Shown: positions 23,497 to 46,189, counted from the first letter of the stretch. The stretch is 64,000 bases of DNA from a virus (IMGVR_UViG_3300033141_002573:42726-106725), one strand, 5' to 3'. Notes: generated by a model from the letters alone, not told the origin. Translations and numbers: made by a program.

Positions 23497-23710
23497 GCTA
23501 CCGTAGAAGCAAGCAAGCACACACCTCAAGCGCAAGCTGCAAGCGCAGGGAAGGGAGGACAGAGGGCAAGCGACACTTTCCTATTCCGAACCCTCGCAGG
23601 TAGAATCGACGGAAGGGAGGGAAGGTGGACAGTCAAGGCAGTCAAGCAGGTAGACAGAAGGTCCTTCGCTCAAGTAAGCAAGCAAGCAACGGAAGGAAGG
23701 TCAAAGGTCA

Positions 23711-24604
23711 ATGTCCTCAATCACCACAATCGAGCGGTCAACAATAAGGCGAATCGTAGTGTCCTCAATCTATACGGTCAACGGAGGTGAAGCACCTCAA
23801 GACATTATCGAGGAGGTAGAAGGGGACATTTTGGCAGACTTGGCAGAAGCGGATATTACCCTTGACCGGGCACAATTAATAAGGGTATACGCCAAGGTCA
23901 ACGACAGAGAGAGGGTCGAGCAGTACATAAGGGACACTCGACGCGGAATGGTTCGGAAACAGATTTCTGACGCAACCAGGAACCTGCTTCGCTATCGAGC
24001 TATCGAAAGGGCGAGGTTCTGTATAGTCACCGTTGCGGTTCCTGTAGACCTCAAGCAACGAATAACGGTAAACAGCTTGCTGCAAATGGTAAGAAGTGGC
24101 CGGGCTTTCGTAGACCCGGCTTCATACAGCGACACAACAACAAGGCTCGAGGAATTGGCAAGCCTTTCCGCTATACCGGGGGTCTCAATCAAGATAGAAA
24201 AGGGGAAGGAGGTTAATCCCCTCCTTAGTGCGGTCAAGAAGCTAGCATTGCGTTCCGCGAAGTGGCACCTCAAGTTCCGACAGGCAGAACCCCTCTGGTC
24301 ACTAGAGGAGGAACACAAGGACAAGATTCCCCTCTGCCGAATCGAAGAGGAGGCAGAGGAGAGAATCGGAAACAAGGACTTCACGGCAAAGGTGGAGGAG
24401 GTGCTCAATAGGTTCGCGGAGAAGGAGGGGAAGGGAGAAGGGTACAAGGGAAAGCTTGCCAAGACACTTTGGCTTCGGATGGACGGGCTTACCGAAGGCG
24501 AGGTAGCGAACAGACTCAAGGTGACAGAGAGAAGCGTGAGGACTTATGTCAAGGACCTCAAGAAGGCATTTGGGGAGGAAGTGGGACTCAACGCGGTAGG
24601 ATAG
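23711..24604 (+). CDS. Sigma-70-family (ECF-like) factor or related HTH regulator
   Basis: C-terminal region-4 HTH (LWLRMDGLTEGEVANRLKVTERSVRTYVKDLKK); LLSAVKKLALRSAKWHLKFR...SLEE resembles region 2.4; a motif copy lies in its own leader. Confidence 0.65.
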   Translation: MSSITTIERSTIRRIVVSSIYTVNGGEAPQDIIEEVEGDILADLAEADITLDRAQLIRVYAKVNDRERVEQYIRDTRRGMVRKQISDATRNLLRYRAIERARFCIVTVAVPVDLKQRITVNSLLQMVRSGRAFVDPASYSDTTTRLEELASLSAIPGVSIKIEKGKEVNPLLSAVKKLALRSAKWHLKFRQAEPLWSLEEEHKDKIPLCRIEEEAEERIGNKDFTAKVEEVLNRFAEKEGKGEGYKGKLAKTLWLRMDGLTEGEVANRLKVTERSVRTYVKDLKKAFGEEVGLNAVG

Positions 24605-24611
24605 AGCAAGC

Positions 24612-24660
24612 GTAAAGAAACAAACCCCTTGCAGGTTCAACCTGCAAGGGGTTTTCTTTT
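24612..24660. terminator. Bidirectional intrinsic terminator
   Basis: Perfect 14-bp stem AAACCCCTTGCAGG/CCTGCAAGGGGTTT with TCTTTT on the right and AAAGAAAC on the left (U-rich on the minus strand). Confidence 0.85.
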
Positions 24661-24661
24661 C

Positions 24662-24870
24662 GACTTGGGTTGGGGGTAGGGGTTGGGGTTGGGGGTAGGG
24701 GTAGGGGTAGGGGTAGGGGTAGGGGTAGGGGTAGGGGTAGGGGTTGGGGTAGGGGTTGGGGTAGGGGTTGGGGTAGGGGTAGGGGTTGGGGTAGGGGTAG
24801 GGGTAGGGGTAGGGGTAGGGGTTGGGGTTGGGGTTGGGGGTAGGGGTAGGGGTAGGGGTAGGGGTAGGGG
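24662..24870 (+). repeat. Telomere-like (GGGGTA/GGGGTT)n hexamer array, G-quadruplex prone
   Basis: About 33 G4-5 runs separated by TA or TT over ~205 bp (count approximate). Confidence 0.95.
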
Positions 24871-24924
24871 ACCTTCCCCTTCCCCTTGGACTTGGGTTGG
24901 GGAACCCCTTCCCCTCCAACCCTT

Positions 24925-25069
24925 TTACCTGCGACAAGGAGAAATAGGAAAGTCCTTCCCCTTCCCCTTGGACTTGGGTTGGGGTAGGGGGTTGGGGACC
25001 TTCCCCTTCCCCTTGGCCCTTGGCCCTTGGCCTTCAACCCTTTTACCTGCGACAAGGAGAAATAGGAAA
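24925..25069 (-). promoter_or_regulatory. Two leftward copies of the 27-bp motif pointing into the G-array
   Basis: TTTCCTATTTCTCCTTGTCGCAGGTAA on the minus strand at 24925-24951 and 25043-25069; each followed after 6 nt by TGGAGG or TGAAGG, as for the plus-strand copies. Confidence 0.8.
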
Positions 25070-25192
25070 GTCTATAATCAATTAATAGCACCTCGAAAAG
25101 TTCTCCAACACTTTCCTATTTCTCCTTGTCGCAAGTAGTATCAACGGAAGGGAAAAGACTGCAAGCAGTCAAACAGAAGGGAGAAACAGAAC

Positions 25193-25519
25193 ATGTCAAG
25201 GTCAATCTGTAAGCTGTATGCCGAAGTAGAACCTGAGTACAAGGAGGAGGTGCTGCAAATCGCCTCAATCGCGGAAAATGCAATAGCAGGAATTGACGAG
25301 TGCTTGCTAAACGAAGGAGAAAGAGTCACCGTCTACGGTTCCGACCAAGGGCCTTCGGTGATTACAGAACTAGGGGAAGAGGTTGGAACCAATGATAGCG
25401 AACTTGCTACATGGTATTCTGACCTCCTTGAAGAGGAGGTGAACCTGCTGCTACCGAAAGGGTTTGTAGCATACTACGAAGACAATTCCCTTTGGGTAGA
25501 GCACCTTGAGGAGGGGTAG
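25193..25519 (+). CDS. Acidic hypothetical protein, paralog family A
   Basis: C-terminal LLPKGFVAYYEDNSLWV motif shared with 26720 and 29460. Confidence 0.7.
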   Translation: MSRSICKLYAEVEPEYKEEVLQIASIAENAIAGIDECLLNEGERVTVYGSDQGPSVITELGEEVGTNDSELATWYSDLLEEEVNLLLPKGFVAYYEDNSLWVEHLEEG

Positions 25520-25552
25520 TTTCCTATTCTTCCTTATCGCAGGTAGTAAAGG

Positions 25553-27090
25553 TGACCGGGTGAAGGGTTCCGAACAAGGAACCCTTCGCCGGGTGTATCC
25601 TATACGGAAGGGAGAAGAGGGAAATGTGGAAAAGGAAACCTACAGCAAGGGGAATAACAGAGGGTCGAATCATGTGGTGGGGAAAAGAGAAGGTGGAGGT
25701 CGTTCGCTGTTATGGTGCAACGACCTGTGTAAAGTGCGTAAAACTGATATACGTTCCTACCAAGGACCTCGACTTTCCTGTCGTTGAACCTCGCAAGTAG
25801 TATATATGAAGGGAGAGAAAACTCATGGAAATAATAGACAAGAGGACAGGTCTTTCAATGAAAGACCTGCATATTCTCCTCTATCAGGTTCACAGGTTGT
25901 CGGAGGCACTACATGAAGCCTGCAAAGAACTTGCCCAATTGAAGTCTATCCGAGAAAACCCGGAGGGCCTAGATACTGACGGGCTTCGGGTGAAGACAAC
26001 TATGGTTGAAAGGGCGGTTCTCCAAAGGGTGGACAGAAACAGGGTTCGGCGGTCTATCCCTTGGGAGGGCGAATACTGAAACGGTGTGGAGGTTGTGCTT
26101 CTCAAATCACACGTATGATGACCGGGTGAAGGGTTCCGAACAAGGAACCCTTCGCCGGGTGTATCATAACACAAGGAGGTCAGCACTTTCCTATTCCACC
26201 ACGTCGCAGGTAGTAAAGGTGAAGGGAGAACAAAAAGGAGGGAAAAGAAATGAAAGCAGTGCTGTGGTACGCAAGCAGATGGGGTTACGAAATACGTGTC
26301 GTGGACATGGACACGGGAGAGGAGCTTGACCACTATCAAGCAGGCAACCACAAGCTTGATTCTGGACAACAAGCAGCGCGAGGAAGTCGGTGGGCCATGT
26401 CCTTAAGAGACATAGTGAAGGATGCGCGGGAAACCGCGCAGGACATGGCAGACGAGTGGGGGGTCCCACACGAAAATATCCTCCTTGACGAGGAATGCGA
26501 GGAGGACACTACAGAGGTCGACGGGTTCGTAGAAAGCCTCCGCAATGAATGGTGCCTCGATGATGCGGGCATTGAGGCTACCCTTGATGAAATGGGATTA
26601 GTTGCACTCTATAGGTGCAATAATCCCCTTCATCGAGGCTTGTTTGCGCGAAACAGGAATGACCCGTCAAAGCTGACCTGCGGGTGTTCTGTGGAGAGTG
26701 GGGAACTTGTAGCATATGAGTGAAGGGAGAGGTTATGATGAGCGAAATAGCAGACTACGTTGAGCGGCTGGCGAGGGAAATCGCCAGTGACCAGAAGGTT
26801 CCTCCGTGGGGAGAGGTGGGTGTGTGGGGAAGAGAGGAGGAAAATCCGGCCCTTGTTATTCTGGAGGAGGCTGAAGCGCCTCCGACCACTACGGAACTGG
26901 AAGGGGAGGCATATGCAGCATTGCTTCTCTCTAAGCTGAATGCGTTCCTCCCTCCAGCGCTTTGTGCATACTGGAGAAATGGACTCTTGATGGTGAAGGA
27001 CATTAGCTAACTACTCCCTCCCTCCCTTCCACCGGTCATGATGACCGGGTAAAGGGCCTTTTCCCGAGGCCCTTTGCCGGGTGTATCATG
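25553..27090 (+). repeat. Hairpin element family, copies 1-3 (25553-25599, 26119-26165, 27037-27090)
   Basis: GACCGGGT-[12-13 bp stem, 6-7 nt loop]-GCCGGGTGTATC; copies 1 and 2 identical over 47 bp, copy 3 has a different but complementary stem. Confidence 0.85.
26720..27010 (+). CDS. Acidic hypothetical protein, paralog family A
   Basis: FLPPALCAYWRNGLLMV C-terminal motif. Confidence 0.65.
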   Translation: MKGEVMMSEIADYVERLAREIASDQKVPPWGEVGVWGREEENPALVILEEAEAPPTTTELEGEAYAALLLSKLNAFLPPALCAYWRNGLLMVKDIS

Positions 27091-27894
27091 AAGTGAACCA
27101 GTTTCCTATTTTCTACCCTCGCAGGTAGAGCAGATGAAGGGAGGTGACATATGAGCATACCCAATATTTCTGAAGCGGCGCAGGATTACCGTGATAGCCT
27201 CCGCAAGGAGGGGCGGCTCTATGCTTCATTCGGCCCGGTGCCGGAGGAAGCGGTTCCGACTCTGCTGGAGATGCTAGAAGACCCGCTCCAGTGGGCATTT
27301 GTTCAAGGCGTCTACCTAGAAAGCGATAGCTTGCCCGATGAGTTGGAGGCCGCCTGCAAACGTGCCTTCGGACCCCTACCATACTGATTGGGAGGTGCTA
27401 TCATGAAGTGCGAGGTGTGCCGTAAGCGACCCGCAACAGCAGTCATGAGGTACACATACACCGTACCTGATGACTGTCCCGACCTGCTGGTATGCGATGA
27501 ATGTGCAACGTTCATTCAAGAACGAGAGGGGGACTGCATGGCAAGGTTCGACCTTGCAGACAACAATAAGTAAAGGGAGGTTGAACGTAGTTTCCTGTCA
27601 GGTCACGTCGCAGGTAGAGTATACGGAGGGAGGTGTTCATAATGAGAACCTTACTTCGCGACGTGGAGGGTCCCACAAAAATTGCCGTTGTTGAGGTCGA
27701 CAACTGGTATCATGTCGAACTCAACTGGGAGAATGAAGGCACTCACGTCAGTCAATGCCGCCTTGCCCGAACCGCAGGAGGTGCCTTGGACCTGGCCGCG
27801 CACCTTGCAGCAGTGAGGCTGGGCAAGGGAAGGTGGGCCGTAGCAGCCTTCATCACACCGTAGCAAGTAGAGAGAAACTGAAGGGAGGCCACAA

Positions 27895-28158
27895 ATGGCA
27901 CTGACACCAAATGAAATGATGGGGGTACTCGACGGGGCAAGGATAGTAAAGCATGACCCCGACCACGACGTGTTGTTTATCTGGCACGGAGGGCACGGGG
28001 TCAGTGGCTTTATCTGCGATGAGAACGGTGAGTGGGTGGAGGCAGTTTACTACAACACAGGAGACTTTGGGCAAAGGGATGCGTCGGAGGAGGACGTTAT
28101 CAGTAGCATTGAAGAACGTATATCCCATCTTGATGACCCCGAGTTTTGGGAAATGTAG
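27895..28158 (+). CDS. Hypothetical protein, paralog family B
   Basis: LDGARIVKHDPDHDVLFIWHGG matches 31325 LDGAMMVVYDEWHGTIWVWYGG. Confidence 0.7.
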   Translation: MALTPNEMMGVLDGARIVKHDPDHDVLFIWHGGHGVSGFICDENGEWVEAVYYNTGDFGQRDASEEDVISSIEERISHLDDPEFWEM

Positions 28159-29085
28159 AGTTTCCTATTCCGGGGCTTCGCAAGTAGTATAGGTGAAGGG
28201 AACCGTAAGGAGGGAGAAACAATGAAAAGGCGCACGGACCTGAAGCCCCAGGACATCCTGAAAACCAGAATCAAAAAGGGCAGAATGTTCCTGGGGCCAC
28301 CTTACGCAGGATGCTTCGGGGGAATGATGCCGTGTATTCTGCACAGCCGTCGAAGCGGGCTTTACCTTGTGGGGTTGGAAATGTTTGTGACAGAACTAGC
28401 GCCACGGCTATGGTACTGGGAGGGTAAACGAATCTACTTCATGGACGAAACGGCGCGTAAGCGCCGTGACCGTCGCAGGGCAGTATGGGTGTTCAAGACC
28501 GCGAAACCAGCAAAGAAAAGGTTCCTTGCAATGTGTGAGGAAGTGGAGGAGTACAACCGCCGCGCCCGTGAAAAAGCACGGGAGGCGATGAAGAAACTTG
28601 AATCTGACGACCCGTCCGTCCGCATTGAGGGCGCATTGGCGCTCAACGACCTCTGAGGGAGGGAGTACCATGAGTTATGACGAACCCGAATATGAGCGGG
28701 TGTGGAGGGCGGGGGACATTCAGGTATCAAGGCATGTTCACGGAACAGGAACCTGGAACAGCCCTCCGCCTTACGTCGCCTGGTACGGCACGTATGCAAC
28801 AGGGGCACAAACAGCAAAGGAAGCCTTGTGCTGGTTAGCAAGCATGGCTGCATTGGTGTGCTACAGGCTGACTGACAACGGGAAAGGAGGCGCAACGTGT
28901 TAAAGCATACGTACTACAGCAGGCGTCGTCCGTTCTGGTTGGGGGCCGGCAGTAGAATGTTGGAGGACCTTCCGCCTGACGGCAAGATAGAGTACATAGA
29001 GGCGCATTGTCTACCCGATGGCGTACTGGGAGGGGTCCGAACAAGTCATCCCCTAAGTGACGCTCTAGTCACAAGTTGGGACCTT

Positions 29086-29435
29086 GAGGAGGTGTGAATG
29101 ATTTTCCTGTTCAACAGCCTCGCAAGTAGGGAATGTGAAAGGGGACTAGGTAGTATGCCCAAGTTTGCAACCTTTGATGAGGCCAAGGAAACACTCAAAG
29201 CGTGGGACATTGGGGTGGCTATAGCCTTACACACAGGAGGACCACTCCCCAGCGAGGAAGACCGCGCTAAGGCTGCCGCAGCACAAGCCGACATAGCCGA
29301 CGCTTGGGTCGTGAGGGAGAGAGTCCGCATACTGTCACGCTCGCCGTTGCGCTCTGAAAGTGAAAAGGCACTACTTCGCCGAATCCTCGGCGAGGAGGTG
29401 TGAATGATTTTCCTGTTCAACAGCCTCGCAAGTAG
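29086..29435 (+). repeat. Identical 44-bp direct repeats flanking one gene
   Basis: GAGGAGGTGTGAATGATTTTCCTGTTCAACAGCCTCGCAAGTAG at 29086-29129 and 29392-29435. Confidence 0.9.
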
Positions 29436-29459
29436 AGAATATGAAAGGAGGCCTTGACA

Positions 29460-29855
29460 ATGACAGACAATGACGTTGAAAACGCTTTGAAGGAACTGGC
29501 AACCACGGTTGCAGATGGTTGCCGAAGACAGTATGCGTCCCCCTATAATGCAGAGGAGGTCGACCCTGATTATGTGAGGGACAATAACCTAGACCCGAAG
29601 GGTACGGCCTACGCGCTCATTGCCTTCGGGTCTAATTGTGGACCCCCGGCAGACGAAATGATAGCGGAGGAAATAGGACTCTCTCCTGACGAGTACTACG
29701 AGGGAGGTTATCAAGACTGGAACTTCGGAGACGAGTTAGAACGCCTGGTATACGAACGTCTACCTGAGGGAGGTTATGTATTCTGGCACGACAACGAACT
29801 ACACTGGGAACTTTTCGAGGAGGAGAGTGACAACAACACGGAAGCGGTAGAGTAA
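29460..29855 (+). CDS. Acidic hypothetical protein, paralog family A
   Basis: RLPEGGYVFWHDNELHW C-terminal motif. Confidence 0.7.
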   Translation: MTDNDVENALKELATTVADGCRRQYASPYNAEEVDPDYVRDNNLDPKGTAYALIAFGSNCGPPADEMIAEEIGLSPDEYYEGGYQDWNFGDELERLVYERLPEGGYVFWHDNELHWELFEEESDNNTEAVE

Positions 29856-29895
29856 ACTTTCCTATGTCAGGACCTCGCAGCCAGTACAAAAGGAG

Positions 29896-30420
29896 ATGAC
29901 AGGAATGAAACCAGTACCCTTGTCTGAATGGCGGTTGGGGTACTCAACCGCCAGGTCAATTGCGGAGGCCTTGTGGGGGCGCGGGGGAACCAGCAGCGAA
30001 AAATGCAACCGCAAAGGGGCATTCTACTTCCTATGCTCCGGGCACGGTGGGTATGTGATAGACAGCAATGCCCTCACTCAACAAGAACGGAAACAGGTGA
30101 ATGACCTGCTGGCCGATGAATACGTCTACCTTTTCGTACAAGACAGAGAGGGCGTTCCTACAGTCATCGGCGTACGTCATCCGTACAGCACGAGACCCGT
30201 AGGTGTGCGATACCCCGTGAGGTGGGGAGAACCTCGCATTGTCGAACATCCAATAGTGATTGCAGAGGAGGACTGTGATTGGGCAGTAGTGGAACTATTC
30301 ACGGGGGTCAGGTCGGAGTGGGCAACGAAGAAGGATGAAGAGAACATCGCCCTAGCTATACAACGCCGACAGGATACCGTGAATGCGCTCAAACATTACC
30401 GAGAGGAGATAGCACAATGA
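29896..30420 (+). CDS. Hypothetical protein (SGHGG...EEDCDWAVV family, possibly DUF7007-like)
   Basis: Motifs recalled from a widespread phage/plasmid family; unverified. Confidence 0.5.
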   Translation: MTGMKPVPLSEWRLGYSTARSIAEALWGRGGTSSEKCNRKGAFYFLCSGHGGYVIDSNALTQQERKQVNDLLADEYVYLFVQDREGVPTVIGVRHPYSTRPVGVRYPVRWGEPRIVEHPIVIAEEDCDWAVVELFTGVRSEWATKKDEENIALAIQRRQDTVNALKHYREEIAQ

Positions 30421-31324
30421 CCTGGGCAGAGTTTGTTGAATACTGGGCAAAGTACATCGGGAGAGTTTCCGTAGAGGACGAGGGAGCGTTCCGAAGAAAC
30501 GCGACACAGGCGTTGCACAACGCGAAAGAAGGGAAGAAACAGGTGTTGATTCCTGAGTACCCTGGGGGAATCAAGCCGGGGAAGTATGATACCGTTACAC
30601 TCCTGAGGCAGCACAAGGACAACCCGGAGGCGATAGCGTTCATTGCAGACATGTTGGAATGAGTTTCCTGTTTCATCCCATCGCAAGTAGTACAAGTGAA
30701 AGGAGGTGATGCAAATGGGAAACCTCGATGACATGGTTGAGGTTGCCCCTTACTACTCAGTGAGAGTTAGCTGGGCGGAAGTAGCCGCGTACCTAAGGGC
30801 ACACGGGATTCCTGCGGAGGTCAAGGTGTGGAGACCCCGTTCGGCCTCCGGGGGCTTTGCGTACGACCCACGTGTCACGGTTGTGGTGCCTCCGATTGAT
30901 GCTGAAACTGCCAAGAAAGCATACATAGACTACATGCACGACAAGAAGGAGCACAGCCGAGTCATCCTTGATGGACTCTCGTTGGAGGAAATAACAGCAT
31001 GGGAGGTAAAGCACTGGGGCCTGGAATACATGGGGTGGTATGGAGTATTCAGTCACGCCGTAGCAGTAGACAAGGCTCACTATGGGGTCATAGCATACTA
31101 CCTGGGAGGTGAAATATGGGAGCGGTACAGGGCAATGCTTGTGGACCGTAACGGGAGGAGGCGGCCTGAAGGCGCTGCATGGGCATTCAATGATGACCTA
31201 ACTGGGCTCTCACAAACATGGTACTCGCAAAAACCGGGAAGTGACTGGACAGGTCTCCCCAAGAGTCTTGCAAACAGTGCATTTTCCGCTGCGGGCGTCT
31301 CGCAGGTAAGAGAGGAGGGGAAAT

Positions 31325-31537
31325 ATGAATCTGGCTAAGTTGGACGGTGCCATGATGGTGGTGTACGATGAGTGGCACGGAACAATATGGGTGTGGTACG
31401 GAGGCCGAAACATTTACAACCTGAATCAGAAAGGAGAGGTGCTGAAAGGCGTGACGTTGAATGAAGAGGACTCAAGCGACGGAGAAAGTGTCGCCTCGTT
31501 TGTGTACAACATGATAAAGGAGAATGAACAAACATGA
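31325..31537 (+). CDS. Hypothetical protein, paralog family B
   Basis: See 27895; preceded by variant motif at 31283. Confidence 0.65.
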   Translation: MNLAKLDGAMMVVYDEWHGTIWVWYGGRNIYNLNQKGEVLKGVTLNEEDSSDGESVASFVYNMIKENEQT

Positions 31538-32100
31538 CCTGGGTGGAAAAACTGGCACCAGACTACCTGAGGACCTCCCCCAAGATGACGGCGATTCTCG
31601 GAGCATTGACGGGGGAAAGGTGGACAGAACCTCGAATGATTAGGATATACATCACTTCAGACAGATTCGCGCTGGGGGAACATGAGGGTGAGGTGGGCGC
31701 AAACTACTTCATCGGGGCAGCAAGTGACCTGGAGCGCAACATCAATGGGGTGTGCAACGCAGTAGGGCTAACTCCCACCGAACGGGTGGAGTTTGCGCGA
31801 ACAGCAATGAAGCACATTGAGGCGCATGGGAACATAGACATTAACTACGCCTTCGGCATTGACAGCATCGAATAAGGGAGGGAACCCGAATGGGTGACGC
31901 AGCAAGCATAGTGCTCCTAACAGCGGGGGGTGGTTTCCTACTCATCCTCATGATATGTGGCGTGATTGCCGCCATACTGAATGGGTGGTATGGGCATACG
32001 AAGGCAAGGCGTCGAGGACGAGTAGAATGGGGTCGGACGGCACAACTGCTCACCACCAAGACAAAACGGCGTAAGTGAAAGTAGTGAAGGAGGGGTACAT

Positions 32101-33636
32101 ATGTACGTAGAAAGCGAGCAGGAACATCTAAACCGCCTTAGGGAAATCTCCCGTATGGCTATGGAGGATGACAACCTCAAGGTTCTGAGAGGGCGGGTGT
32201 TGATTCCCTCAAGTGGGTACACAATTAATGGGACACACATTCATGAGTGGAGAAAAGCCTTGGAGCGTCGCATGGGAATCACAGGACATATCAAAACTCG
32301 GCTCCAACCTCATGTCAAGGGCGAAATAACGTGGTTGAAAGAGTCTCTGTGCTACAGTAGGGCTAACTACCAGGCACTCAGAATAGGACTCGCTACCACA
32401 CCTAAAGACGGAAAACTCGTGCCGATACCTCTCCACCAACTCGTTAAGGAGGCAGAGGAGTACGAAAGCTTTCAGAATGAAAGTCATGCACGGGAAATAG
32501 CACGCATCTACCGGCGCATAGAAGTACAGAACCATCAGACCAGGGGTCTGCTGTATGCCCACATTCCCTGTAGTGAGGAGCGAAGCACACGCGGCTATGT
32601 ACCCTTCTGGGAGAAGCATGGAACACTTGTCCTTAGTCCTGCTATCCGTGCGGAACCTGTAGGGCCTGGGAAGGCTGAGGTGCAGGTCACAGTACTATCG
32701 GGCGAGACAGTTATCGACACGTTCATTACATCGGCAAGGCCACAGGTTTCAAACCCCACCGCACGTGAAGAGCGCTTCTATTGCTCAGATGGAAGCGTAG
32801 TGTACCTGCGCCCTCCCAACCTGCGCCAGTACCTGGCCTTGATTGATAAAGCAACCTACAACCCGTCATCGAGTAAGTATTACACAGTTGAAACGGGCAA
32901 CATAAGCTCATTGAGGAAAGCCCTAACAGGCACAGGCAAGGTGGCCGCCTCCAAGAATGAGCACCACATTCTTGGAAACGTGCTGATAGAAATCCGTGAA
33001 GACAAACTGTCCATCACTGGTACGGACAACCACACCTTGATAAGGTCACACCAGATTCCGATACAGGGGTACGAAAACGATGAAGAACTTCTGGTTCCAG
33101 GACCATTCGCAGTAGCAGTCGGAGAGAAAACGGTCGATGGGGAACCCATATCCATCGGCGTTGGGCCGGATTCTCTGCGCGTCATACAAGGAGAACTAGA
33201 CATCGCAACCCCGTTAGCCAAAGGGATATACCCCAACATCGAAAAACTAATAGCTTACAGGTGGAGGAAGACAACATCTCTGGGACCTGCTCCTGCGTTG
33301 AGAAATGCCATTAGAAAAACAAAGAATCACGTGGAACCATACGCACTCCGCAAGATACACCTGGTTCCCCAAGAGGGAATATGGGTGCTCACGGTTCACA
33401 AGGGTGGGAGGAACGGAGAAGATTATGTCGTTCCGCTACCCGACAGCAAGGCCAGTGATGATGATGAGATAGTGGCCCTTAGCAGAGACCATCTCATGCA
33501 AGTAGCACAAATGACCCAGGAGCATGTGGTGATGCACTACATGCCCAGTACACTTCCCTTGTCGTTCAATGTCCCAGAGTGGGATACGTGCCTCGTAAGT
33601 CCAATGCTAGTAACCATCGGAGGTGAAGCACAATGA
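32101..33636 (+). CDS. Unknown N-terminal domain fused to beta-sliding-clamp-like domains
   Basis: AASKNEHHILGNVLIEIREDKLSITGTDNHTL and GIYPNIEKLI match the DnaN central domain; ending LVSPMLV resembles the DnaN C-terminus. Confidence 0.7.
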   Translation: MYVESEQEHLNRLREISRMAMEDDNLKVLRGRVLIPSSGYTINGTHIHEWRKALERRMGITGHIKTRLQPHVKGEITWLKESLCYSRANYQALRIGLATTPKDGKLVPIPLHQLVKEAEEYESFQNESHAREIARIYRRIEVQNHQTRGLLYAHIPCSEERSTRGYVPFWEKHGTLVLSPAIRAEPVGPGKAEVQVTVLSGETVIDTFITSARPQVSNPTAREERFYCSDGSVVYLRPPNLRQYLALIDKATYNPSSSKYYTVETGNISSLRKALTGTGKVAASKNEHHILGNVLIEIREDKLSITGTDNHTLIRSHQIPIQGYENDEELLVPGPFAVAVGEKTVDGEPISIGVGPDSLRVIQGELDIATPLAKGIYPNIEKLIAYRWRKTTSLGPAPALRNAIRKTKNHVEPYALRKIHLVPQEGIWVLTVHKGGRNGEDYVVPLPDSKASDDDEIVALSRDHLMQVAQMTQEHVVMHYMPSTLPLSFNVPEWDTCLVSPMLVTIGGEAQ

Positions 33637-35462
33637 CGCCGAAAGTCATATTCTGGTTCAGTCGACGGACGGACCAGACCGGGCCGCGTTCGACATGCGA
33701 CAGCACGGTCCAGGCAATTGTCAAAGCCGTAAGTCGGGCGCTGGAGATTCCAGCAACCATTCACATCGACCAGGGAAACCCAGGCGATTATGTTGACCTC
33801 AGCGTAGAGGTGCCGACCGATGACACGCTCGAACGTTTTCTCGATGCGTTGTCGGCTGGCGGACTTACCAGCATAGACTACGACAGCATTGATAGCGCCG
33901 ATGGTGGCGCTATCAAGGACAAAGACCTGTCGGCACGCCTGGAGTCCTACGGAGTAACCGTGTGGTAGATTCCTATTATGGTTCCTCGCAGGTAGACATG
34001 GTGAAAGGAGATAGGAGCATGGAACTGATAGTTGCCGCAAGAAAGGCGTTGGACACCTATCAAAGGCGGGCGGCAAACGCCAAGGCGCGATGGAACCACG
34101 AGCAGTACCGTATCGCAACGATAATGGCCGACCGCGCTGCCAGGCTTCTGGCTGCGTTAGAAAAGGAGACAGAAAAGTGAACGGGACAGACAAAGCAATA
34201 AACAAGACAATTAGCCTATTCTACAATCTTCAAAAGCAGACCGCTGGAATTGACAACAAGGGGTTGCGGAGGGACTTCCGCGACGACCTTGCTGAACTCA
34301 CCGCTAAGATTAAGAATCTCGGCTACTGGCTTGAGTCCCACGACCCAGTTGTCCGGGCTTTGGCGTCAGACGCACTTCGGGCATTGGGGATAAAGACATA
34401 GAAACGGGTAACCGACCCTAACCTGCTACCGCAGCGGTATCCCGGAGAATAGGAGACGAGAAAATGACAAAGCAAGAATGCGAAGCGGTACGCCAGACAT
34501 TCTGTATCCTAGAGCGTCTACGTGACGTAGCAGGCAACGCAAGCGCAGAGGCGTATGACACCGATGACATGACCACATTCTCAAGGCTGGTTGGTGACGT
34601 TGACATGTACACCGATGCGCTATACGTGCTAGGTCGGCTCCTAGCACGTGAGGGAGCCGCCCGGTGGCGGGACTTCAAATATGAACTTACACCAACAGCC
34701 GAAAGCGGCGGCGGGAGGTGAAATAACGTGAATATAGTGCATGAAGACGATGGGGCAAGGGCGCTTTCCCTTGCCCGAATTGATGAATGGGCAGGCTCCA
34801 GACTTACACCATCTGAACACAGCGAACGGCGCATTCTCCTCTGTCGCCTTGGTGCCGCAGGCAGACTGGTGGCGGGGAAGAAGTGGAGCGTCCGGCGATA
34901 CCCAGGGGCAGGTGAGTACTCCTCGCGCACGATATTCTTGGACACAGAAAAAGATGGGCGCGAGGTGGTGACCTGGGAAGGTTGGACCCGGAACTGGAAG
35001 CAGGACTGGGCGCAAATACAAAAAGGGGAAATCGAAGGAACCTCATTCAGAACCTGAGGAGGTGGAACACGTGCGAAGGGTTACAGTCACAGGGGAAGGA
35101 ACAAGCGTAGAGGTGGTTCTCCTTACGCCAGAGGAGAACCCTTATGGCGATGACTGGAGTTACATTTATGTTCATCCTATGAGTGGAAAACTCACAGACT
35201 TCCCCGGCATGGGGTGGGCTGACCCGAAGGGAGACGACTCTCACAAGCGGCTTATGCGCCTGGTACGGCGCATAAACGCAGCGTGGGACTCGGCCACCAC
35301 ACCGGGGTTCATCGCCCTGCTCGCGGCGCAATGGATAGGGAATCTCGAAGTGGGTGAGTGGGAGCGACGGGCGTAGGCCACATGGTAGACGGTAACCACA
35401 TTCCCTACAACTGCAATGAGCAACATATCCGCCCTGTTCTACAGCGAAAGGAGATGTGAAAC

Positions 35463-35657
35463 ATGGTCCTTCACTTGGTCCTCGAACTATGGGACGGTGG
35501 TACAATAGTACAAGGTGTCACAGACAGCATCAATATAGAAGACGAGGAGGAGGCATTCAAGGTTTTCAACGAACACGCCAGAACGTTCACCAGAATTAGA
35601 CCGTCCCATCGTCAACTCTCCGACGAGAGCAAACCCGACGCAAAAGGTCTGGGGTAA
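35463..35657 (+). CDS. Hypothetical protein, paralog family C
   Basis: LELWDGGTIVQGVTDSINIEDEEEAFKVF vs 41246 LKIWDNGIIASEVTDSREIEDEEQAFAVF. Confidence 0.7.
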   Translation: MVLHLVLELWDGGTIVQGVTDSINIEDEEEAFKVFNEHARTFTRIRPSHRQLSDESKPDAKGLG

Positions 35658-37029
35658 ATGCCAAGAGCACCAGCAAAAATACGAGCGGAGGTGCAATGAA
35701 ACATGCACGAAATAGATGAGGGCGACATCCTCGTCATAGACAAGGAAGAGGAAGAAGTCTTGAAGGTGTACCAGACGCACAGAAATAACGAGGGAGAGGT
35801 TATCGGCTATCTCGTCGAGCTAACACACGGGGAATGGTATATCTTCGGAACGCAGGAGGCGGCGGGGCAAGCGGCCCGTGACTACTGGAGGGAATTGGCA
35901 GAGAATGACCCTGAGGAGTTCCGTTGCATTGTCGGCGACGAGAGCCTTGTTAAGTGGGCACTCGGCCAGTACGCCGGTCCCGGTAGCACAAAGGTTAACA
36001 GTTTGGAGGCGTGGCTCGACCTGTGGCTGGATACGCCAGAGGAGTGCTGGGCATCGTACGACCGCTTCGAGTGGGAGGCTGTCCATACCAACGTAGAAGA
36101 CAGCATTAAGCAGAACGTGGTAGCATACCGCTGGAACTAGCCCCAGAGAGGAGATCCTATAATGTTATGTCGCAAGTATACAGGAAGGGGAGGCCCTATT
36201 CACTACGGAGGATGGCGCATTGTGGGCAGTCTCGATCCTCTCACAACCCGGCGGGGAATGCCAACTGAGCACCTGTATCGATGCCCCGATACAGGTCATT
36301 GGGCACACTGGCATGACGGGGGCGCTGTACGCGCACATTGCACGCCTGTGGCGTACAGGCACGGGGATACATGGCACGACGCAGACACAGGCGAGGCCCT
36401 CAGCAGGGAAGACGCCGTGGGCTACAGGAACAAGGAGAGTGATGAGACCATCAGCCTTAATGAGGCGCTTGTCGAGGCCCACAGACTGAAGTAAAGTTCT
36501 AAACAGTCGGACCAGCTCCACAACCGAACAAGCAGGAGGCAACAACATGAAAGTTACTGGGTTGCGGAAATGGGGGCGGCGAGGGTGGGAATGGACCATC
36601 CGCTGGGCCGAACCGTGGGCTAACGGTATGGAACGGAGCTACCGCACTAACGACCACGGCGATGGCCTTTGGGTGTGGAACACACAGCGAGGCGAGTGGC
36701 GACAGACCATTGGCACGTGTCAGTTTGCCCTACCGGGCAACCGCGAGACTGCCCGAAGGACCATTCGTAGATACTTCCTTAGGCCGTCTAATCCGCAATA
36801 GATAGTCGGAAGGAGGGTGTGCAGCAATGAAGTACCAAGTGGCGCATACAGTGGATGGATTGGGTGGGCGCTATCCGGGCGGCGGAATCGTGGATACAGA
36901 GGTAGATAGCCTAGCCAAGGCCCGCCGGTTGGCCGCCAGGCTAACGGCGGTGGGGCAATGCGGCTACATAGTACGTGTGGCCGATGGCGCAATCGAAATG
37001 CCCGATGGCTCGTGGTTCGTTCCGAAGCA

Positions 37030-38029
37030 ATAGGTAGCCGGGTCCTGCCCTCGCATTGACGAGGGTGGGGGCCGGGCGTATCCTATGACGGGAGGTGAAA
37101 GCCGTGAGCAACCTCACAGTGGTGCGCAGTCTGGCAAACTGGCGCAGGCGTATAATCGGCTGCGCCAGGGAGCACAACCCTCAAGCCGTAGAGGACGCCC
37201 TGGGGATTGTCAGCGCCTTCAGCGGTGGTGGCAACACGGTTGCCTGTCTAAATGACCTCGGAATAGAGGCCGACCGCCGGGGGCTGTCGGACGCCGCCTG
37301 GCGCGTGATTAGCCAGGCCGCCAAGTGACGCCAACCAAGGCCCTCTGCGAGGGCAGGACCAGCCGTACCCTAAGTAAAGGTGAGCGTATTCTACAGGGAG
37401 GACAAGACGGATGACACAATGGAATCCCGAGGATGCAATGGCAGTACTCTCCGAGACGATTGAGATACTCTCGGAGGCAGGGGTCCCGATCAACCCCCTG
37501 ACAGTCCGCGCCTATCTCTCTGAGCGCGAGGGAGGCGAGCAGACATGAGTTTGACACGCGACGAAACGAGGGCCTTAGACATCGCACGTAGGTTGCTCGA
37601 AGCACGAGCCGACCGCCTCATGGAGCAGTGCGATAATGCCGACCCCGCTGCCGACATCAGCAGGCTGCTTGAGGAGGCCGACGAATACCAGGCGGCTGCT
37701 GATACCATCACCGACCTCCGCCTGCTCAACAAGCGGCACTAATCAGGCATAGGTGGCCGGGTCCTGCTCTCGGCCCCCGAGGGTAGGGCCGGGTGTATCC
37801 TAAGACAGGGAGGTGCAAGGCAATGAGTTATGACGAGCAACTGGCAGCCTGGCAACGGGAGAATCACTGTGACACCTGTCGCTTCGGGGACCTAGAGTCC
37901 TTTGAACGCGGTGAACCCTGTTGCCTGAAGATGCGCCGCGAGTTCGACGCGCAGGGAATGTGCCTGTCGCATGAGGACAGTCCAGACAAGAGGGGATAGG
38001 TCGCCGGGTCCGGGGCCGGCCTTATCCTA
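37030..38029 (+). repeat. Hairpin element family, copies 4-6 (37030-37086, 37750-37802, truncated 37997-38029)
   Basis: TAGGT-N-GCCGGGTCC-[stem-loop]-GGGCCGGGYGTATCCTA, each between a stop codon and the next RBS; a degenerate copy lies near 37340-37374. Confidence 0.8.
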
Positions 38030-39072
38030 AGACGAACATGGAGAAAGGAGGATAGTTCAATGGCAGGAGTTGAAAGGCTCACCGACTGGATGGAGAGATA
38101 TGATAACTCCACGTCCTTGGAGGCACTACACAGTCAAGGAGACTTGACGCGGGAGGTCAAGGGTATTGTTGCCGAACTAGCATACCACGGCGACCGTCTC
38201 CCCCCATACGTGTGGATCTGTCGCGACCGACGCACCCGCCAAGAGGATGAAGACGCCAAGGAGGCCTTGGAATACCTGGCTGAGGTTTTCAGGCATGTTG
38301 CCAACTGGGCAACTGCACGGGCTGATGAGGCGGCATCGGCTGCACAGTCGCAACCCATCGGCAACGATCCGCCCATTATCGTATAAAAGGAGATGAGAGA
38401 GATGCAGACAGAACAACTACTCGCAGAAGCCCAGGCCGCAGTCGAAGCGGAAAGGAGGGCAGTGGGACAACTCTGTCGTGCTCAACGTGCGCTGGAGCTA
38501 ACACCCCGATTCGACAGAGGGTCGGGTCGTGAGCGTATCCGCAAGCGAATCGAGGCAGAGCAGGCACTCGCAGCGGCTGAGAGGGATGTGGAGTCTGCCG
38601 AGAAACGAGCGGACCAACTGCTTCAAGAACTCGAGGCATTAATCAGTCCAGTAGGGAGATGAGGTGAAAGAAGTGATAGTCAAGTCAATGCCTGTTAGGT
38701 TGCGGAACGACTATAGCGACGCCTTCGCAGACTATTTGAAAGAAGGCTTCACATTGCAACAGGCCACGCGCAGAATGGGGCTACGACTTCTGCGCCAGAA
38801 AAAACTAGAGACGTACAGAATAGCATTTCTCCAAGTGGGAAATGTCAGATACGGCATGACTTTGTGGGAAGACGCTTGGGAGGAGGGGTATCCAGTAGCA
38901 GACAAGTTAACTGAAAATGACAAGTTGCGTCTGCTAGTAAGTTGAAACATAGAAAAGTGTACTGTAGAAAGGAGGCCAAAGCACAACAACATCCCTAACC
39001 TACCGCCTGATTAAGGAGGAAAAAGAAACGTCAAGCGAAAACGGAATACACACCGAACCGAACCTCCAACCC

Positions 39073-39693: not shown

Positions 39694-40185
39694 GAGAAGG
39701 GATAACAATGGACTGGACACCCCACGAGGTAGTACTCATCGGCCCCACAGGCAGACCAAGCAAGCGGCTGCACCTGGTAGCTGGACCCAAAGAACACACA
39801 CTATGTGGAAGGGAAGTCTGGCGCTATCGGGAACCGTTGCCAAACGACCCCACAGAACTCTGTGAGGCGTGCAAACGAGCAGAGGTAACCCTTGCCCGTG
39901 GGTTAGCAACCGTTGGGAGGTGAAACAGAATGACACTCGAAGAGCAAGTGCGCATACTGGCTGTTATCACAACGCGAGACGAGACCGGTAGACACTTCCT
40001 GGAAAGGCATCGAGGCGATGACATAGCAAAACTGGAGGCTGCCGGGCTGGTGGCGATCAACCGCCCCGTACATAGTGCAACGGGCATACCGTACTCACCA
40101 GAGTACTATACCATCGAGGTCACAGAGGAGGGGCAGGCACTTGTGGACGCACACCCTGATCTATGGCCGAAGGAGTGCGAATAGG

Positions 40186-41046
40186 ATGACAGCAGGACCC
40201 CCGCGAAGCGGCCAGATAGGACCACAGGCATCTAGGGCGTTAATGCTGGCAGCACGGTTCGCCAGCGACGATAAAACACGCCCCATCATCACCGCCGTTA
40301 TGTGGCGAGGAGGACATACAAAGGACACTATCATAGCAACAGACACCTACAGAGCATATCGGTGCGAGGTAACACGCGACAATGAATGGCTGTTACCCAC
40401 ACCTGGGGAATGTTGGCTGTTGCCTGCGCAAACAATCGAGCAGGTTACGAATACCGAGCGGCGTCGTTTGAATCCCTTACTAACGGTCACACACCCATGC
40501 CCTAACCATTCGGACAGCGAATACCATGTTGCAATACGGTGTGATGTGGCTAACACCAAACAAAGAACAAAGGATGCCGTGGGAGAAGTGATAACTGGGG
40601 TCTACCCTCACGTTGAGGATGGGCGAATCATTCCAGACTACAACAAAGAGCAGGAGTTCCTTGGATGGTCCGGCGAGGTGCCAGTTAAAGGGCTGTATAA
40701 CGTTCTACCTCATCTGCGTGACGTAAACGAGTCCCACAGTATTAAGTTCAGCTTTGACAATGAAAAGGTAAGCCTACAAGCAGAGAAAAAATATACTACA
40801 GAGGATGTAACTGTCGAGGCTAACGTAAAGGTAGCAACAGGCAACGGAAGGAAAACAGAGGTGGAACTAAATGGCTATTACATCTCAGACATTGTGGAAC
40901 TTCTGTATGAACAAAACTCAACAGGGATGCTCCAAGTACAGGTGCCTCAACCTGAATATACACTCCCCGTTCGGATGGACGGGGAGTGGGGAACGTATGT
41001 AGTGATGGGAATGGCAGCAGAAAAGGTAAGGAGGCAAGACAGATGA
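40186..41046 (+). CDS. dnaN: DNA polymerase III beta clamp-like protein (domains II-III only, ~286 aa)
   Basis: FASDDKTRPIITAVMW...IIATDTYR, GVYPHVEDGRIIP, ELNGYYISDIV, YVVMGM match DnaN motifs; ATG 40186 has an RBS. Confidence 0.7.
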   Translation: MTAGPPRSGQIGPQASRALMLAARFASDDKTRPIITAVMWRGGHTKDTIIATDTYRAYRCEVTRDNEWLLPTPGECWLLPAQTIEQVTNTERRRLNPLLTVTHPCPNHSDSEYHVAIRCDVANTKQRTKDAVGEVITGVYPHVEDGRIIPDYNKEQEFLGWSGEVPVKGLYNVLPHLRDVNESHSIKFSFDNEKVSLQAEKKYTTEDVTVEANVKVATGNGRKTEVELNGYYISDIVELLYEQNSTGMLQVQVPQPEYTLPVRMDGEWGTYVVMGMAAEKVRRQDR

Positions 41047-42116: not shown

Positions 42117-42615
42117 ATGATTAACATGACAAAACAGACAGTCCGCGAGGAAGACGGCCTCCACGAAGAGTGGTATAAGGAGGCAAAGGAAATCAAAGAC
42201 ATCCCAGGGCTTACGACATTTGCCGAGAAAATGCTCGACAGCTACGAGCACGACTATGGCACGGTATGTCATGCAGTTGCTGCATTGGCAACTGCCGCAG
42301 CGAACGTAGGAGCACACACGCAAGGCCTTACAGGTTTCCAGGCCCAAGTAGTGACGTGGGGCTTCATCAGGGAGTTCGGGGCATTCATGGGTGCTGGTAG
42401 AGGACCAATGAGTCTCGTGATGTACGAGCATATGCTATACCCACAGTACGAAAAACTGGTATTGGCTACAAGAACAGGCTAAGGACTACTTGGTACGCCA
42501 CAAGGACGCCAACGATGAAGTACGCGCACACTGGCAGTCTATCGTGGATGGTAATGTGCCATTCGGTTACACTGTAGAAAAGACCAAGAAAGGAAGTGAG
42601 ACTGTTGAGGATTGA
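42117..42615 (+). pseudogene. Frameshifted conserved phage hypothetical gene
   Basis: Frame 1 (HDYGTVCHAVAA...GLTGFQA...MLYPQYEK) stops at 42482. The +1 frame from ~42457 reads WYWLQEQAKDYL...VRAHWQSIVDGNVPFGYTVE, which I recall as the usual C-terminus of this family. Confidence 0.55.
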
Positions 42616-46166: not shown

Positions 46167-46189
46167 TATTACAAAGGGGTGACAAAACT

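What the first reader, a model, noticed from the sequence alone, without database searches (positions are those of the whole stretch)
25553..38029. Intergenic hairpin family with compensatory base changes, conserved G-G mismatch and bulged G
Seen: six copies plus one degenerate. Upper stems differ in sequence but stay paired (GGTGAAGGGTTCC/GGAACCCTTCGCC; GGTAAAGGGCCT/AGGCCCTTTGCC; GGTCCTGCTCTCGG/CCGAGGGTAGGGCC). The lower stem covaries (ACC/GGT in copies 1-3, GCC/GGC in copy 4), separated by a constant G-G mismatch and followed by a bulged G. Each copy follows a stop codon; copy 1 is inserted between promoter and RBS. No U-tract, so not an intrinsic terminator. Established: T7 early RNase III sites have an upper stem/internal loop/lower stem layout, and integron attC sites are ssDNA hairpins with extrahelical bases. 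Inference: an RNA processing or protein-binding signal, or an ssDNA recombination site.
Basis: partly seen in the sequence, partly recalled or inferred. Interest (0 to 1): 0.75.

Follow-up and report, generated by a model that had tools for sequence, protein, structure and literature searches.

The report
Repeated intergenic RNA hairpins in phage
An uncultured 108-kb phage carries five intact and two decayed copies of a 50-60-base hairpin between its small early genes; it most likely acts in the messenger RNA as a boundary or stability signal, much like regulatory cassettes known from T4 and T7, but its function is untested.

Summary
There are five intact copies, all on the + strand and all intergenic (25546-25605, 26114-26168, 27036-27091, 37030-37086, 37750-37802). 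There is also one internally deleted copy (37993-28) and one decayed remnant (about 37335-37372). The copies share a fixed base (RCCGGGU ... GCCGGGYGUAUCMUA) with an invariant G.G mismatch and a U.G pair. Their 10-11-bp upper stems come in three unrelated but fully paired versions.

Pairing holds in 96% of cells, 10 of 20 pairs change on both sides, and there are 18 G.U cells against no A.C. As RNA the + strand folds 6-14 kcal/mol better than the - strand. As single-stranded DNA, copy 5 folds no better than shuffled sequence. So the element most likely works in + strand RNA.

No copy has a U tract. Four consecutive copies lie in a promoter-free gene string that must be read through, so a strong terminator is unlikely.

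My best reading (about 0.45) is an intercistronic mRNA boundary, stability or processing hairpin carried in shufflable promoter/hairpin/Shine-Dalgarno cassettes. This resembles T4-type PeSLs and T7 RNase III sites. An integron-like reading is disfavoured.

No related phage, Rfam family or RNA data could be found, so function stays inferred. I rate it a new variant of a known kind, of moderate interest.

The parts
25546..25605 (+). Copy 1. The hairpin core is 25555-25594. It lies directly after promoter 25520-25546 and 19 nt before the start codon at 25624.
   Evidence: Fold -37.9 kcal/mol, z -5.6; model score 80.2 bits; 48 bp (25552-25599) are identical to copy 2.
26114..26168 (+). Copy 2. It starts 35 nt after the stop at 26079 and ends 18 nt before promoter 26187-26213.
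   Evidence: Fold -38.6 kcal/mol, z -7.0, 23 pairs plus a G.G mismatch plus a bulged G; 80.8 bits.
27036..27091 (+). Copy 3. It starts 26 nt after the stop at 27010 and ends 10 nt before promoter 27102-27128. Its upper stem differs from copies 1 and 2 by compensatory changes.
   Evidence: Fold -41.2 kcal/mol, z -5.9; 72.3 bits.
37030..37086 (+). Copy 4. The stop codon TAG at 37031-37033 lies inside the outer stem. A Shine-Dalgarno sequence and the GTG start at 37104 follow.
   Evidence: Fold -38.0 kcal/mol, z -3.7; 63.3 bits; one extra G in the 3' arm.
37335..37372 (+). Decayed remnant. It keeps 6 upper-stem pairs and the tail GUACCCUAAG, but the CCGGG boxes are lost by substitution.
   Evidence: Alignment to copies 4 and 5; fold no better than shuffles; not detected by the model.
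37750..37802 (+). Copy 5. It begins 8 nt after the stop at 37742. A Shine-Dalgarno sequence and the ATG at 37823 follow.
   Evidence: Fold -36.8 kcal/mol, z -2.4 as RNA. The - strand does not form the hairpin. As ssDNA z is -0.9. 70.8 bits.
37993..38028 (+). Truncated copy. The outer stem and the CCGG/CCGG pairing are kept, but the upper stem is deleted. The stop TAG at 37997-37999 lies in the outer stem.
   Evidence: Model score 23.2 bits, E 1e-4; fold -19.8 kcal/mol, z -1.35.
25520..25546 (+). Phage early-promoter motif TTTCCTRTT-N10-TCGCARGTAG, upstream of copy 1. Sister motifs at 26187-26213 and 27102-27128 follow copies 2 and 3.
   Evidence: Four exact matches against 0 expected; about 15 + strand sites between 23577 and 33995 at looser stringency.

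Best explanation
The family is a cis-acting structure in the + strand (sense) early and middle transcripts of the phage. It is a roughly two-turn irregular RNA helix. From the outside in, it has an outer stem, a bulged G or small internal loop, RCC/GGY, an invariant G.G mismatch, and then 13-14 pairs whose upper part is free to vary.

I propose it works as an intercistronic boundary element in three ways:
- It marks where polycistronic RNA is processed (RNase III-type cleavage at the distorted base) or where 3'-5' exonucleases stop, so the upstream cistron ends in a protective hairpin.
- It gives the downstream Shine-Dalgarno sequence a constant, self-contained 5' context.
- In copy 1 it probably sits at the very 5' end of the primary transcript, where a terminal stem-loop would protect against 5'-end-dependent decay.

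The hairpin is one module of small regulatory cassettes (stop codon, hairpin, early promoter or not, Shine-Dalgarno sequence, start codon). These cassettes appear to have spread among unrelated orphan genes by recombination, as PeSLs do in T4-type phages.

Shown here: the structure, its strand bias, its positions, and its independence from the flanking genes. Inferred: RNA-level action, processing or stabilisation, the transcription start at copy 1, and the mode of spread.
For: 1. Non-chance family: five copies, + strand only, against about 0 expected.

2. Pairing is maintained through sequence change: 96% of cells paired and 10 of 20 pairs changed on both sides. No shuffle in 500 reaches the covariation score, and slid registers drop to 29-57% paired.

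3. Strand sense: 18 G.U cells and no A.C. RNA folds are -36.8 to -41.2 kcal/mol on + against -22.4 to -32.2 on -, where copy 5 does not form at all. As ssDNA, copy 5 has z -0.9 and copy 4 has z -2.3.

4. The G.G mismatch and the U.G pair are invariant across three unrelated upper stems. These imperfections are therefore kept rather than corrected.

5. Not a strong terminator. There is no U tract, whereas this phage does have canonical two-way hairpin-plus-T-run terminators at 24622-24654 and at genome 24066-24101. Copy 4, the remnant, copy 5 and the truncated copy fill four consecutive gaps in a tightly packed same-strand gene string. That string has no early-promoter motif from after the last site (33969-33995) to at least 38946, so downstream genes need read-through. 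Copy 1 lies directly downstream of a consensus promoter.

6. In about 11 of 13 promoters GAAGGGAG-like sequence starts exactly 7 nt after GTAG. In copy 1 the hairpin base (GACCGGGU) occupies that position, which places the hairpin at or near the 5' end of the transcript.

7. The helix of 20-24 pairs with a mismatch and a bulge matches the stated requirements for bacterial RNase III substrates. Those are about two helical turns, with internal loops or bulges limiting cleavage to one strand and leaving a protective 3' hairpin (PMC1540722).

8. The flanking ORFs are unrelated to each other and have no Pfam family. The repeat is therefore not a by-product of gene duplication. A 48-bp identical pair brackets a two-ORF module. 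This parallels PeSL cassettes, where the stem-loop may lie upstream or downstream of the promoter (PMC2839356).
Against: There is no RNA data and no related genome, so neither ends nor conservation across phages could be examined. All covariation comes from five copies in one genome, effectively three stem types.

The core around the mismatch is almost all G-C, which acts as an antideterminant for E. coli RNase III (PMC1540722). The host is unknown.

Strict sequence conservation of the base is more than RNase III or an exonuclease barrier would need. It hints at a sequence-specific partner.

Two copies have decayed, so individual copies are dispensable.

Compensatory change in a DNA inverted repeat can also arise by template switching, without selection on RNA.
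Confidence: 0.45

Rival explanations
1. The hairpin is a transcription attenuator or partial terminator that insulates neighbouring expression cassettes. This is the role assigned to the stem-loop of T4-type PeSLs. It may depend on a factor or on the phage-modified polymerase.
For: Copies 2 and 3 lie 10-18 nt upstream of early promoters, in a terminator-then-promoter layout. The stems are very stable and G-C-rich. A PeSL stem-loop reduced lacZ expression as much as rrnB T1 (PMC2839356).
Against: There is no U tract, while the same genome has canonical terminators with T runs. Copy 1 follows a consensus promoter directly. Four copies in a row lie in a promoter-free gene string that must be read through.
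Confidence: 0.2
2. The hairpin is an operator for a sequence-specific phage protein that recognises the conserved base (RCCGGGU / GCCGGGYGUAUC with the G.G mismatch and unpaired G). The protein could be a translational repressor or activator, an antiterminator, or a dedicated endoribonuclease. Alternatively, the two direct RCCGGGY boxes about 33 bp apart could be read as duplex DNA.
For: The base is identical over about 18 nt while the upper stem and loop vary freely. That is the pattern expected when a protein reads the base and needs only a helix above it. The site lies 18-30 nt upstream of start codons in copies 1, 4, 5 and the truncated copy.
Against: No candidate protein was found: every nearby ORF lacks a Pfam family. 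The Shine-Dalgarno sequence and start codon lie outside the hairpin, so there is no direct occlusion. Copies 2 and 3 are separated from the next gene by a promoter.
Confidence: 0.12
3. The copies are largely neutral linkers. They would be scars of recombination-mediated shuffling of intergenic cassettes, kept as palindromes by template-switch repair, with no function of their own.
For: There are two decayed copies. A 48-bp identical pair flanks a module. The gap 37329-37410 is a mosaic of hairpin-tail and promoter-leader fragments.
Against: The wobble pairs are strongly one-sided (18 G.U, 0 A.C). The mismatch is invariant across three stem types. All copies are on the sense strand.
Confidence: 0.12
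4. The hairpin is a folded single-strand DNA recombination site or small mobile element (attC-like or REP-like). The phage Xer-like recombinase, or a host enzyme, would use it to move orphan-gene cassettes.
For: The layout looks cassette-like, with a conserved base, a mismatch and an unpaired base, and a variable top. Small orphan ORFs lie between copies. A tyrosine recombinase lies next to a ComM-type helicase at 44637-47023.
Against: There is no attC core (GTTRRRY). The recombinase matches Xer models best, and integron models score far below cut-off. No Y1 transposase is present. Copy 5 folds no better than shuffles as ssDNA. The folding strand is the coding strand. There are only 5-7 copies. 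The recombinase is 8 kb away.
Confidence: 0.06

Closest known systems
PeSLs (promoter-early stem-loops) of T4-type phages RB49 and phi1 (PMC2839356, PMC4122927)
   Same: Both are repeated composite intergenic units: stop codon, stable stem-loop containing G-T pairs, early promoter, Shine-Dalgarno sequence and start codon. Both concentrate among small orphan genes. In both, the stem-loop may lie upstream of the promoter or just downstream of it. Identical copies flank gene modules.
   Different: The promoter here is a phage-specific motif (TTTCCTRTT-N10-TCGCARGTAG), not the sigma-70 consensus with an AT-rich upstream region. The hairpin is longer (50-60 nt) and has three parts, with a strictly conserved base, a G.G mismatch and an unpaired G. 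Four of the seven copies carry no promoter. Terminator activity and mini-circle formation are untested, and strong termination is unlikely here.
RNase III processing sites of the T7 early region (R0.3-R1.3), as summarised in PMC1540722
   Same: Several sites lie between successive early cistrons. Each is about two helical turns interrupted by a loop or bulge. That architecture leaves a protective 3' hairpin on the upstream message.
   Different: There is no sequence similarity and no Rfam match. The core is G-C-rich where the E. coli enzyme disfavours G-C pairs. The distortion is a 1x1 G.G mismatch plus one unpaired G, not a large asymmetric internal loop. Cleavage has not been shown.
Start-associated sequences with extended inverted repeats (SAS/ESAS) of Cluster K mycobacteriophages (PMC3203893)
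   Same: A conserved asymmetric sequence lies just upstream of the start codons of a subset of genes and is preceded by imperfect inverted repeats with a variable spacer. All copies face one way, and the function is unknown but thought to be post-transcriptional.
   Different: The sequence is different. ESAS arms are themselves conserved 17-mers, whereas here only the base is conserved and the upper arms vary with compensation. ESAS sites are conserved across many related phages, whereas no relatives are available here.
Integron attC sites
   Same: Both have a conserved base with unpaired bases, a variable top, and a position 3' of small cassette-like genes.
   Different: There is no R'/R'' core, no integron integrase and no attI/Pc platform. 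The folding strand is the coding strand, and the fold as DNA is weak.

Membership tests
T4-type PeSL regulatory cassette | Composite intergenic unit joining a stable stem-loop to an early promoter, between a stop codon and the next Shine-Dalgarno sequence and start codon | tested here: met
   Copies 1-3 lie beside promoter motifs, with 6-18 nt between the fold and the motif. Copies 4, 5 and both degenerate copies have the hairpin and Shine-Dalgarno sequence but no promoter.
T4-type PeSL regulatory cassette | Promoter matching the sigma-70 consensus with an AT-rich upstream region | tested here: not met
   The associated motif is TTTCCTRTT-N10-TCGCARGTAG. The sigma-70 scan gives no consistent hit at these sites.
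T4-type PeSL regulatory cassette | Enrichment in regions of small, non-conserved genes | tested here: met
   All 20 ORFs tested, flanking and nearby, have no Pfam family. Two larger neighbours have no homologue among 5.8 billion proteins.
T4-type PeSL regulatory cassette | The stem-loop terminates transcription, and copies recombine to give indels or mini-circles | not testable with these tools
   No RNA or DNA runs were listed and there is no close relative for indel comparison. The only hints are indirect: a 48-bp identical pair around a two-ORF module, and the mosaic gap 37329-37410.
Bacterial RNase III substrate (T7 early-site type) | Quasi-continuous double helix of about two turns | tested here: met
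   20-24 pairs plus one mismatch in the minimum-energy folds. The criterion is from PMC1540722.
Bacterial RNase III substrate (T7 early-site type) | Internal loop or bulge that can restrict cleavage to one strand | tested here: met
   An invariant G.G 1x1 mismatch, plus a bulged G (copies 2 and 3) or a 2x4 loop (copies 1, 4 and 5).
Bacterial RNase III substrate (T7 early-site type) | Absence of inhibitory G-C pairs in the proximal box; actual cleavage | tested here: inconclusive
   The pairs flanking the mismatch are C-G, C-G, G-C and G-C in every copy. That is unfavourable under the E. coli rules (PMC1540722), but the host enzyme and the cleavage site are unknown. The phage itself has no RNase III domain.
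Canonical intrinsic terminator | G-C-rich hairpin followed directly by a U tract | tested here: not met
   The tails are GUAUCCUA or GUAUCAUA. None passes the scan, which does find the two-way terminator at 24622-24654.
Integron attC site | R''/R' core sites (RYYYAAC ... GTTRRRY) at the base | tested here: not met
   The base reads RCCGGGU ... GCCGGGYGUAUC in all copies.
Integron attC site | Partner integron integrase (IntI) | tested here: not met
   The recombinase at 46190-47023 matches XerA, XerC and XerD models best (157-123 bits). Integron models score 83 and 50 bits against cut-offs of 265 and 435.
Integron attC site | Stable fold of one DNA strand | tested here: inconclusive
   As ssDNA, copies 1 and 3 have z -4.7, copy 4 has z -2.3 and copy 5 has z -0.9.
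REP/BIME elements with RAYT transposase | Y1 (RAYT) transposase and many extragenic copies with a conserved 5' GTAG | tested here: not met
   There is no PF01797 match in the phage. There are only 5-7 copies. The 5' tetranucleotide is GTAG in copy 4 only (GTGA, ATGA, ATGA and GTGG in the others).
Cluster K SAS/ESAS | 13-bp GGGATAGGAGCCC motif 3-8 bp from the start codon, with conserved 17-bp inverted arms | tested here: not met
   That motif is absent. The conserved tail here is GUAUCCUAWGAC followed by GGGAGG. The resemblance is in layout only (PMC3203893).

The most novel reading that the evidence does not exclude
The hairpin is the recognition site of a dedicated cassette-exchange system. 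The folded single strand (DNA or RNA) would be bound at its conserved base, with the G.G mismatch and unpaired G. The phage's Xer-like recombinase, working with the adjacent ComM-type helicase, would act on it. Orphan genes could then be captured, excised and reshuffled in a phage genome, in an integron-like manner but without an integron integrase or attC core.
Probability: 0.05. Interest if true: 0.8.

Novelty: new variant of a known kind. Interest (0 to 1): 0.38.

Why it matters
Repeated regulatory cassettes are thought to be the linkers that let phages shuffle orphan genes without upsetting their neighbours. So far they have been characterised mainly in T4-type phages.

This family would extend the idea to an unrelated, orphan 108-kb siphovirus-like phage that uses its own promoter type. 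It would also add a hairpin whose base is conserved in sequence, including a mismatch and an unpaired base. That points to a specific RNA-protein or RNA-nuclease interaction rather than a generic terminator.

If it is a processing or insulating element, it would be a compact natural part for separating cistrons.

The practical value is limited for now. The host is unknown, there are no relatives and no RNA data, so every functional statement is inference.

Tried and rejected
**Searches for relatives.**
- blastn of 25000-32900 against 50,697 phage records found no match.
- Exact-pattern scans of IMG/VR for the hairpin base and for the promoter found only single chance hits that do not fold like the family.
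Every row listed had one match, and the best folds among the fetched stretches were unlike the family. These scans therefore cannot exclude relatives or a host-borne family.
- Neighbouring proteins 32101-33636 and 40075-41046 have no homologue other than themselves. Look-up of the encoding contig found nothing. ORF 26250-26723 has no relative in IMG/VR.
- The capsid protein found one distant record, IMGVR_UViG_3300031965_000001 (27% identity, 41% GC). It has no copy of the family and almost no strong hairpins.
- The nearest cultured capsid relatives are about 120-134-kb Streptomyces phages at 25% identity. This gives no host assignment.

**RNA evidence.** No sequencing run was listed for the stretch, so no RNA holder was listed and read laying was not used.

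**Rfam.** No family matched the hairpins even at E up to 1.

**Ideas considered and dropped.**
- Restriction-site avoidance of CCGGG: counts equal expectation.
- A by-product of tandem gene duplication: the flanking ORFs are unrelated.
- A phage-encoded RNase III, RAYT transposase or recognisable sigma-70 region 2: none found.
- A phage RNA polymerase among the large ORFs: none was seen in PHROGs.
- A sigma-70-like promoter inside copy 4 (TTGACG-17-TATCCT): the -35 part is absent from the other copies.
- Lambda-type nut/boxB or HK022 put RNAs: the loops vary and there are too many copies.

Full report
**Setting.** The window is bases 42726-106725 of a 108,503-bp IMG/VR virus record with direct terminal repeats, rated complete. 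Genes to the left of about 23,300 run on the - strand: tail tape measure, capsid and other structural genes. From about 23,500 onward they run on the + strand (GC skew). First come some 50 small genes without any Pfam family. Replication and recombination genes follow: clamp-like proteins, a ComM/YifB ATPase, a Xer-like recombinase, helicases and methylases. A family A DNA polymerase lies outside the window. No RNA polymerase, RNase III, Y1 transposase or recognisable sigma-70 region 2 was found. The phage is an orphan. Two mid-sized proteins have no homologue but themselves among 5.8 billion sequences. The only capsid relative in IMG/VR is 27% identical.

The quoted arms are at the stated places. 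The defining pattern occurs five times in the whole genome, always on the + strand, with about zero expected. A covariance model built from the five copies scores them at 63-81 bits. It adds only a truncated copy at 37989-38035 (23 bits) and finds nothing in the remaining 45 kb of the genome. A seventh, decayed copy at about 37335-37372 is visible only by alignment. It keeps six upper-stem pairs and the tail GUACCCUAAG but has lost both CCGGG boxes. The count is therefore five intact plus two degenerate, not six plus one.

**Anatomy.** From outside to inside the hairpin has these parts:
- An outer stem: UAUGAUG/UAUCAUA in copies 2 and 3, and (A)UAGG/CCUA(U) in copies 1, 4 and 5. A shorter GGUR/UAUC register is also possible.
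- An unpaired G, either alone or within a 2x4 loop.
- RCC/GGY.
- An invariant G.G mismatch.
- GG/CC and an invariant U.G pair.
- A 10-11-pair upper stem and a 3-7-nt loop.

The base is identical in sequence over about 18 nt. The upper stems come in three unrelated versions. The G.G mismatch arises because both arms carry the same odd palindrome RCC-G-GGY as a direct repeat.

On the model-guided alignment, 96% of cells pair and 10 of 20 pairs change on both sides. No shuffle in 500 reaches the observed covariation score, and sliding the partner by one column drops pairing to 49-57%. The four unpaired cells all come from one extra G in copy 4, which pairs once that G is bulged. These are only five sequences from one genome, so this shows maintained pairing, not phylogenetic covariation.

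**RNA or DNA, and which strand.** There are 18 G.U cells and no A.C cell. Base composition predicts roughly equal numbers of the two. As RNA the + strand folds at -36.8 to -41.2 kcal/mol and the - strand at -22.4 to -32.2, with copy 5 not forming at all on the - strand. With DNA parameters, copy 4 (z -2.3) and copy 5 (z -0.9) are hardly better than shuffled sequence. All copies face the direction of transcription. I take this as good evidence for action in the sense RNA.

**Position.** Every copy lies in a gap after a stop codon. In copy 4 and the truncated copy, the stop codon is part of the outer stem.
- Copies 2 and 3 lie 10-18 nt upstream of a phage promoter motif, TTTCCTRTT-N10-TCGCARGTAG. 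This motif has about 15 + strand sites between 23577 and 33995 and none later.
- Copy 1 lies directly downstream of such a motif. In most of these promoters a GAAGGGAG-like block starts exactly 7 nt after GTAG. In copy 1 the hairpin base starts at that very position. If transcripts start there, which is an inference, this RNA begins one base before the first pair of the hairpin.
- Copy 4, the remnant, copy 5 and the truncated copy fill four consecutive gaps at 37.0-38.1 kb. Each is followed by GUAUCCUAWGAC, a GGGAGG Shine-Dalgarno sequence and a start codon 18-30 nt on.

**What it is probably not.**
- *A canonical terminator.* There is no U tract, whereas the phage has textbook two-way terminators with T runs at 24622-24654 and at genome 24066-24101.
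- *A strong terminator of any type.* Four copies lie in a densely packed same-strand string with no early-promoter motif from after 33995 to beyond 38946. Genes downstream must therefore be reached by read-through. A consensus promoter also fires straight into copy 1.
- *A by-product of gene duplication.* The flanking ORFs show no similarity to each other.
- *An attC site.* It lacks the core sequences. The recombinase 8 kb away is Xer-like, and integron-integrase models score far below cut-off.
- *A REP element with its transposase.* There is no RAYT transposase and only a handful of copies.
- *A member of any Rfam family*.

**Most likely mechanism.** A helix of 20-24 pairs interrupted by a mismatch and an unpaired base, placed between cistrons of early polycistronic RNA, is the layout of bacterial RNase III substrates. 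In those, loops or bulges restrict cutting to one strand and leave a protective 3' hairpin (PMC1540722). Even without cleavage, such a hairpin would block 3'-5' exonucleases. It would also keep the downstream ribosome-binding site in a constant context. At copy 1 it would cap the 5' end; that 5'-terminal stem-loops stabilise bacterial mRNA is established knowledge, which I did not re-check here. I therefore read the family as an intercistronic boundary, stability or processing element, with confidence about 0.45 for the class of function. My confidence is lower, about 0.25, for RNase III specifically. The core pairs are all G-C, which inhibits the E. coli enzyme, and the strict sequence conservation of the base suggests a more specific partner.

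**How it spread.** Several features match the PeSL cassettes of T4-type phages:
- The hairpin is combined with the promoter and the Shine-Dalgarno sequence in different orders.
- A 48-bp identical pair (25552-25599 and 26118-26165) brackets a two-ORF module.
- The gap 37329-37410 is a mosaic of a hairpin tail and promoter-leader fragments.
- The copies sit among orphan genes.

In PeSL cassettes the stem-loop may lie on either side of the promoter, and copies recombine to move orphan genes (PMC2839356). The differences are a non-sigma-70 promoter, a larger three-part hairpin with a conserved base, and copies that lack promoters. The SAS/ESAS repeats of Cluster K mycobacteriophages are a second analogue in layout (PMC3203893).

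**Limits.** No relatives, no RNA reads and no host are available. All functional statements are inferences from one genome.

**Verdict.** This is a real, well-defined hairpin family and a new variant of a known kind of phage regulatory repeat. Interest is moderate, at 0.38.

Noticed in passing
window 23577-33995 (about 15 sites, + strand; two more on the - strand at 24925-24951 and 25043-25069): The phage promoter motif extends beyond the two known blocks. In about 11 of 13 + strand sites a GAAGGGAG or GAAAGGAG block starts exactly 7 nt after GTAG. This holds even where a second Shine-Dalgarno sequence follows further on. The block may therefore belong to the promoter or the initial transcribed sequence rather than being only a ribosome-binding site.
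   Followed up: partly
window 38957-38975, 42566-42585, 43688-43705: A possible second recurring motif, (A/G)(C/A)TGTAGAAA(A)G, lies just upstream of ribosome-binding sites in the region that lacks the early-promoter motif. It may be a middle-class promoter element.
   Followed up: no
window 13012-13049 (- strand): This is the strongest unrelated hairpin in the genome, with a 17-pair stem at -31.6 kcal/mol and no U tract. It lies just downstream of the putative major capsid gene (13082-14125, - strand). It is probably a 3' stabiliser or attenuator after the most highly expressed late gene.
   Followed up: no
genome 24066-24101 (outside the window) and window 24622-24654: There are two perfect two-way intrinsic terminators, with A runs and T runs on both sides. 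One lies at a gene-orientation switch outside the window. The other lies between gene 23711-24604 and the G-rich repeat at 24612-25138. They show that canonical termination is used in this phage.
   Followed up: partly
window 37329-37410: This intergenic gap is a mosaic. It contains a decayed hairpin 3' half with its tail, then TAAAGGTGA (identical to the leader of promoters 25520 and 26187), then GCGTATTCTAC (a second hairpin-tail fragment without a hairpin), then the Shine-Dalgarno sequence. It looks like the product of repeated recombination or deletion among regulatory cassettes.
   Followed up: partly
L387-L393 (IMGVR_UViG_3300031965_000001, 105,910 bp): This is the only detectable relative of the phage in IMG/VR. 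Its capsid protein is 27% identical, its genome size is similar, but its GC is 41% against about 52% here. It has almost no strong hairpins. The nearest cultured capsid relatives are about 120-134-kb Streptomyces phages at 25% identity.
   Followed up: partly
window 46190-47023: The tyrosine recombinase scores best against the archaeal XerA model (157 bits, below the 220 cut-off) rather than bacterial XerC or XerD. Its role in a phage with terminal repeats and no evident lysogeny module is unclear.
   Followed up: no
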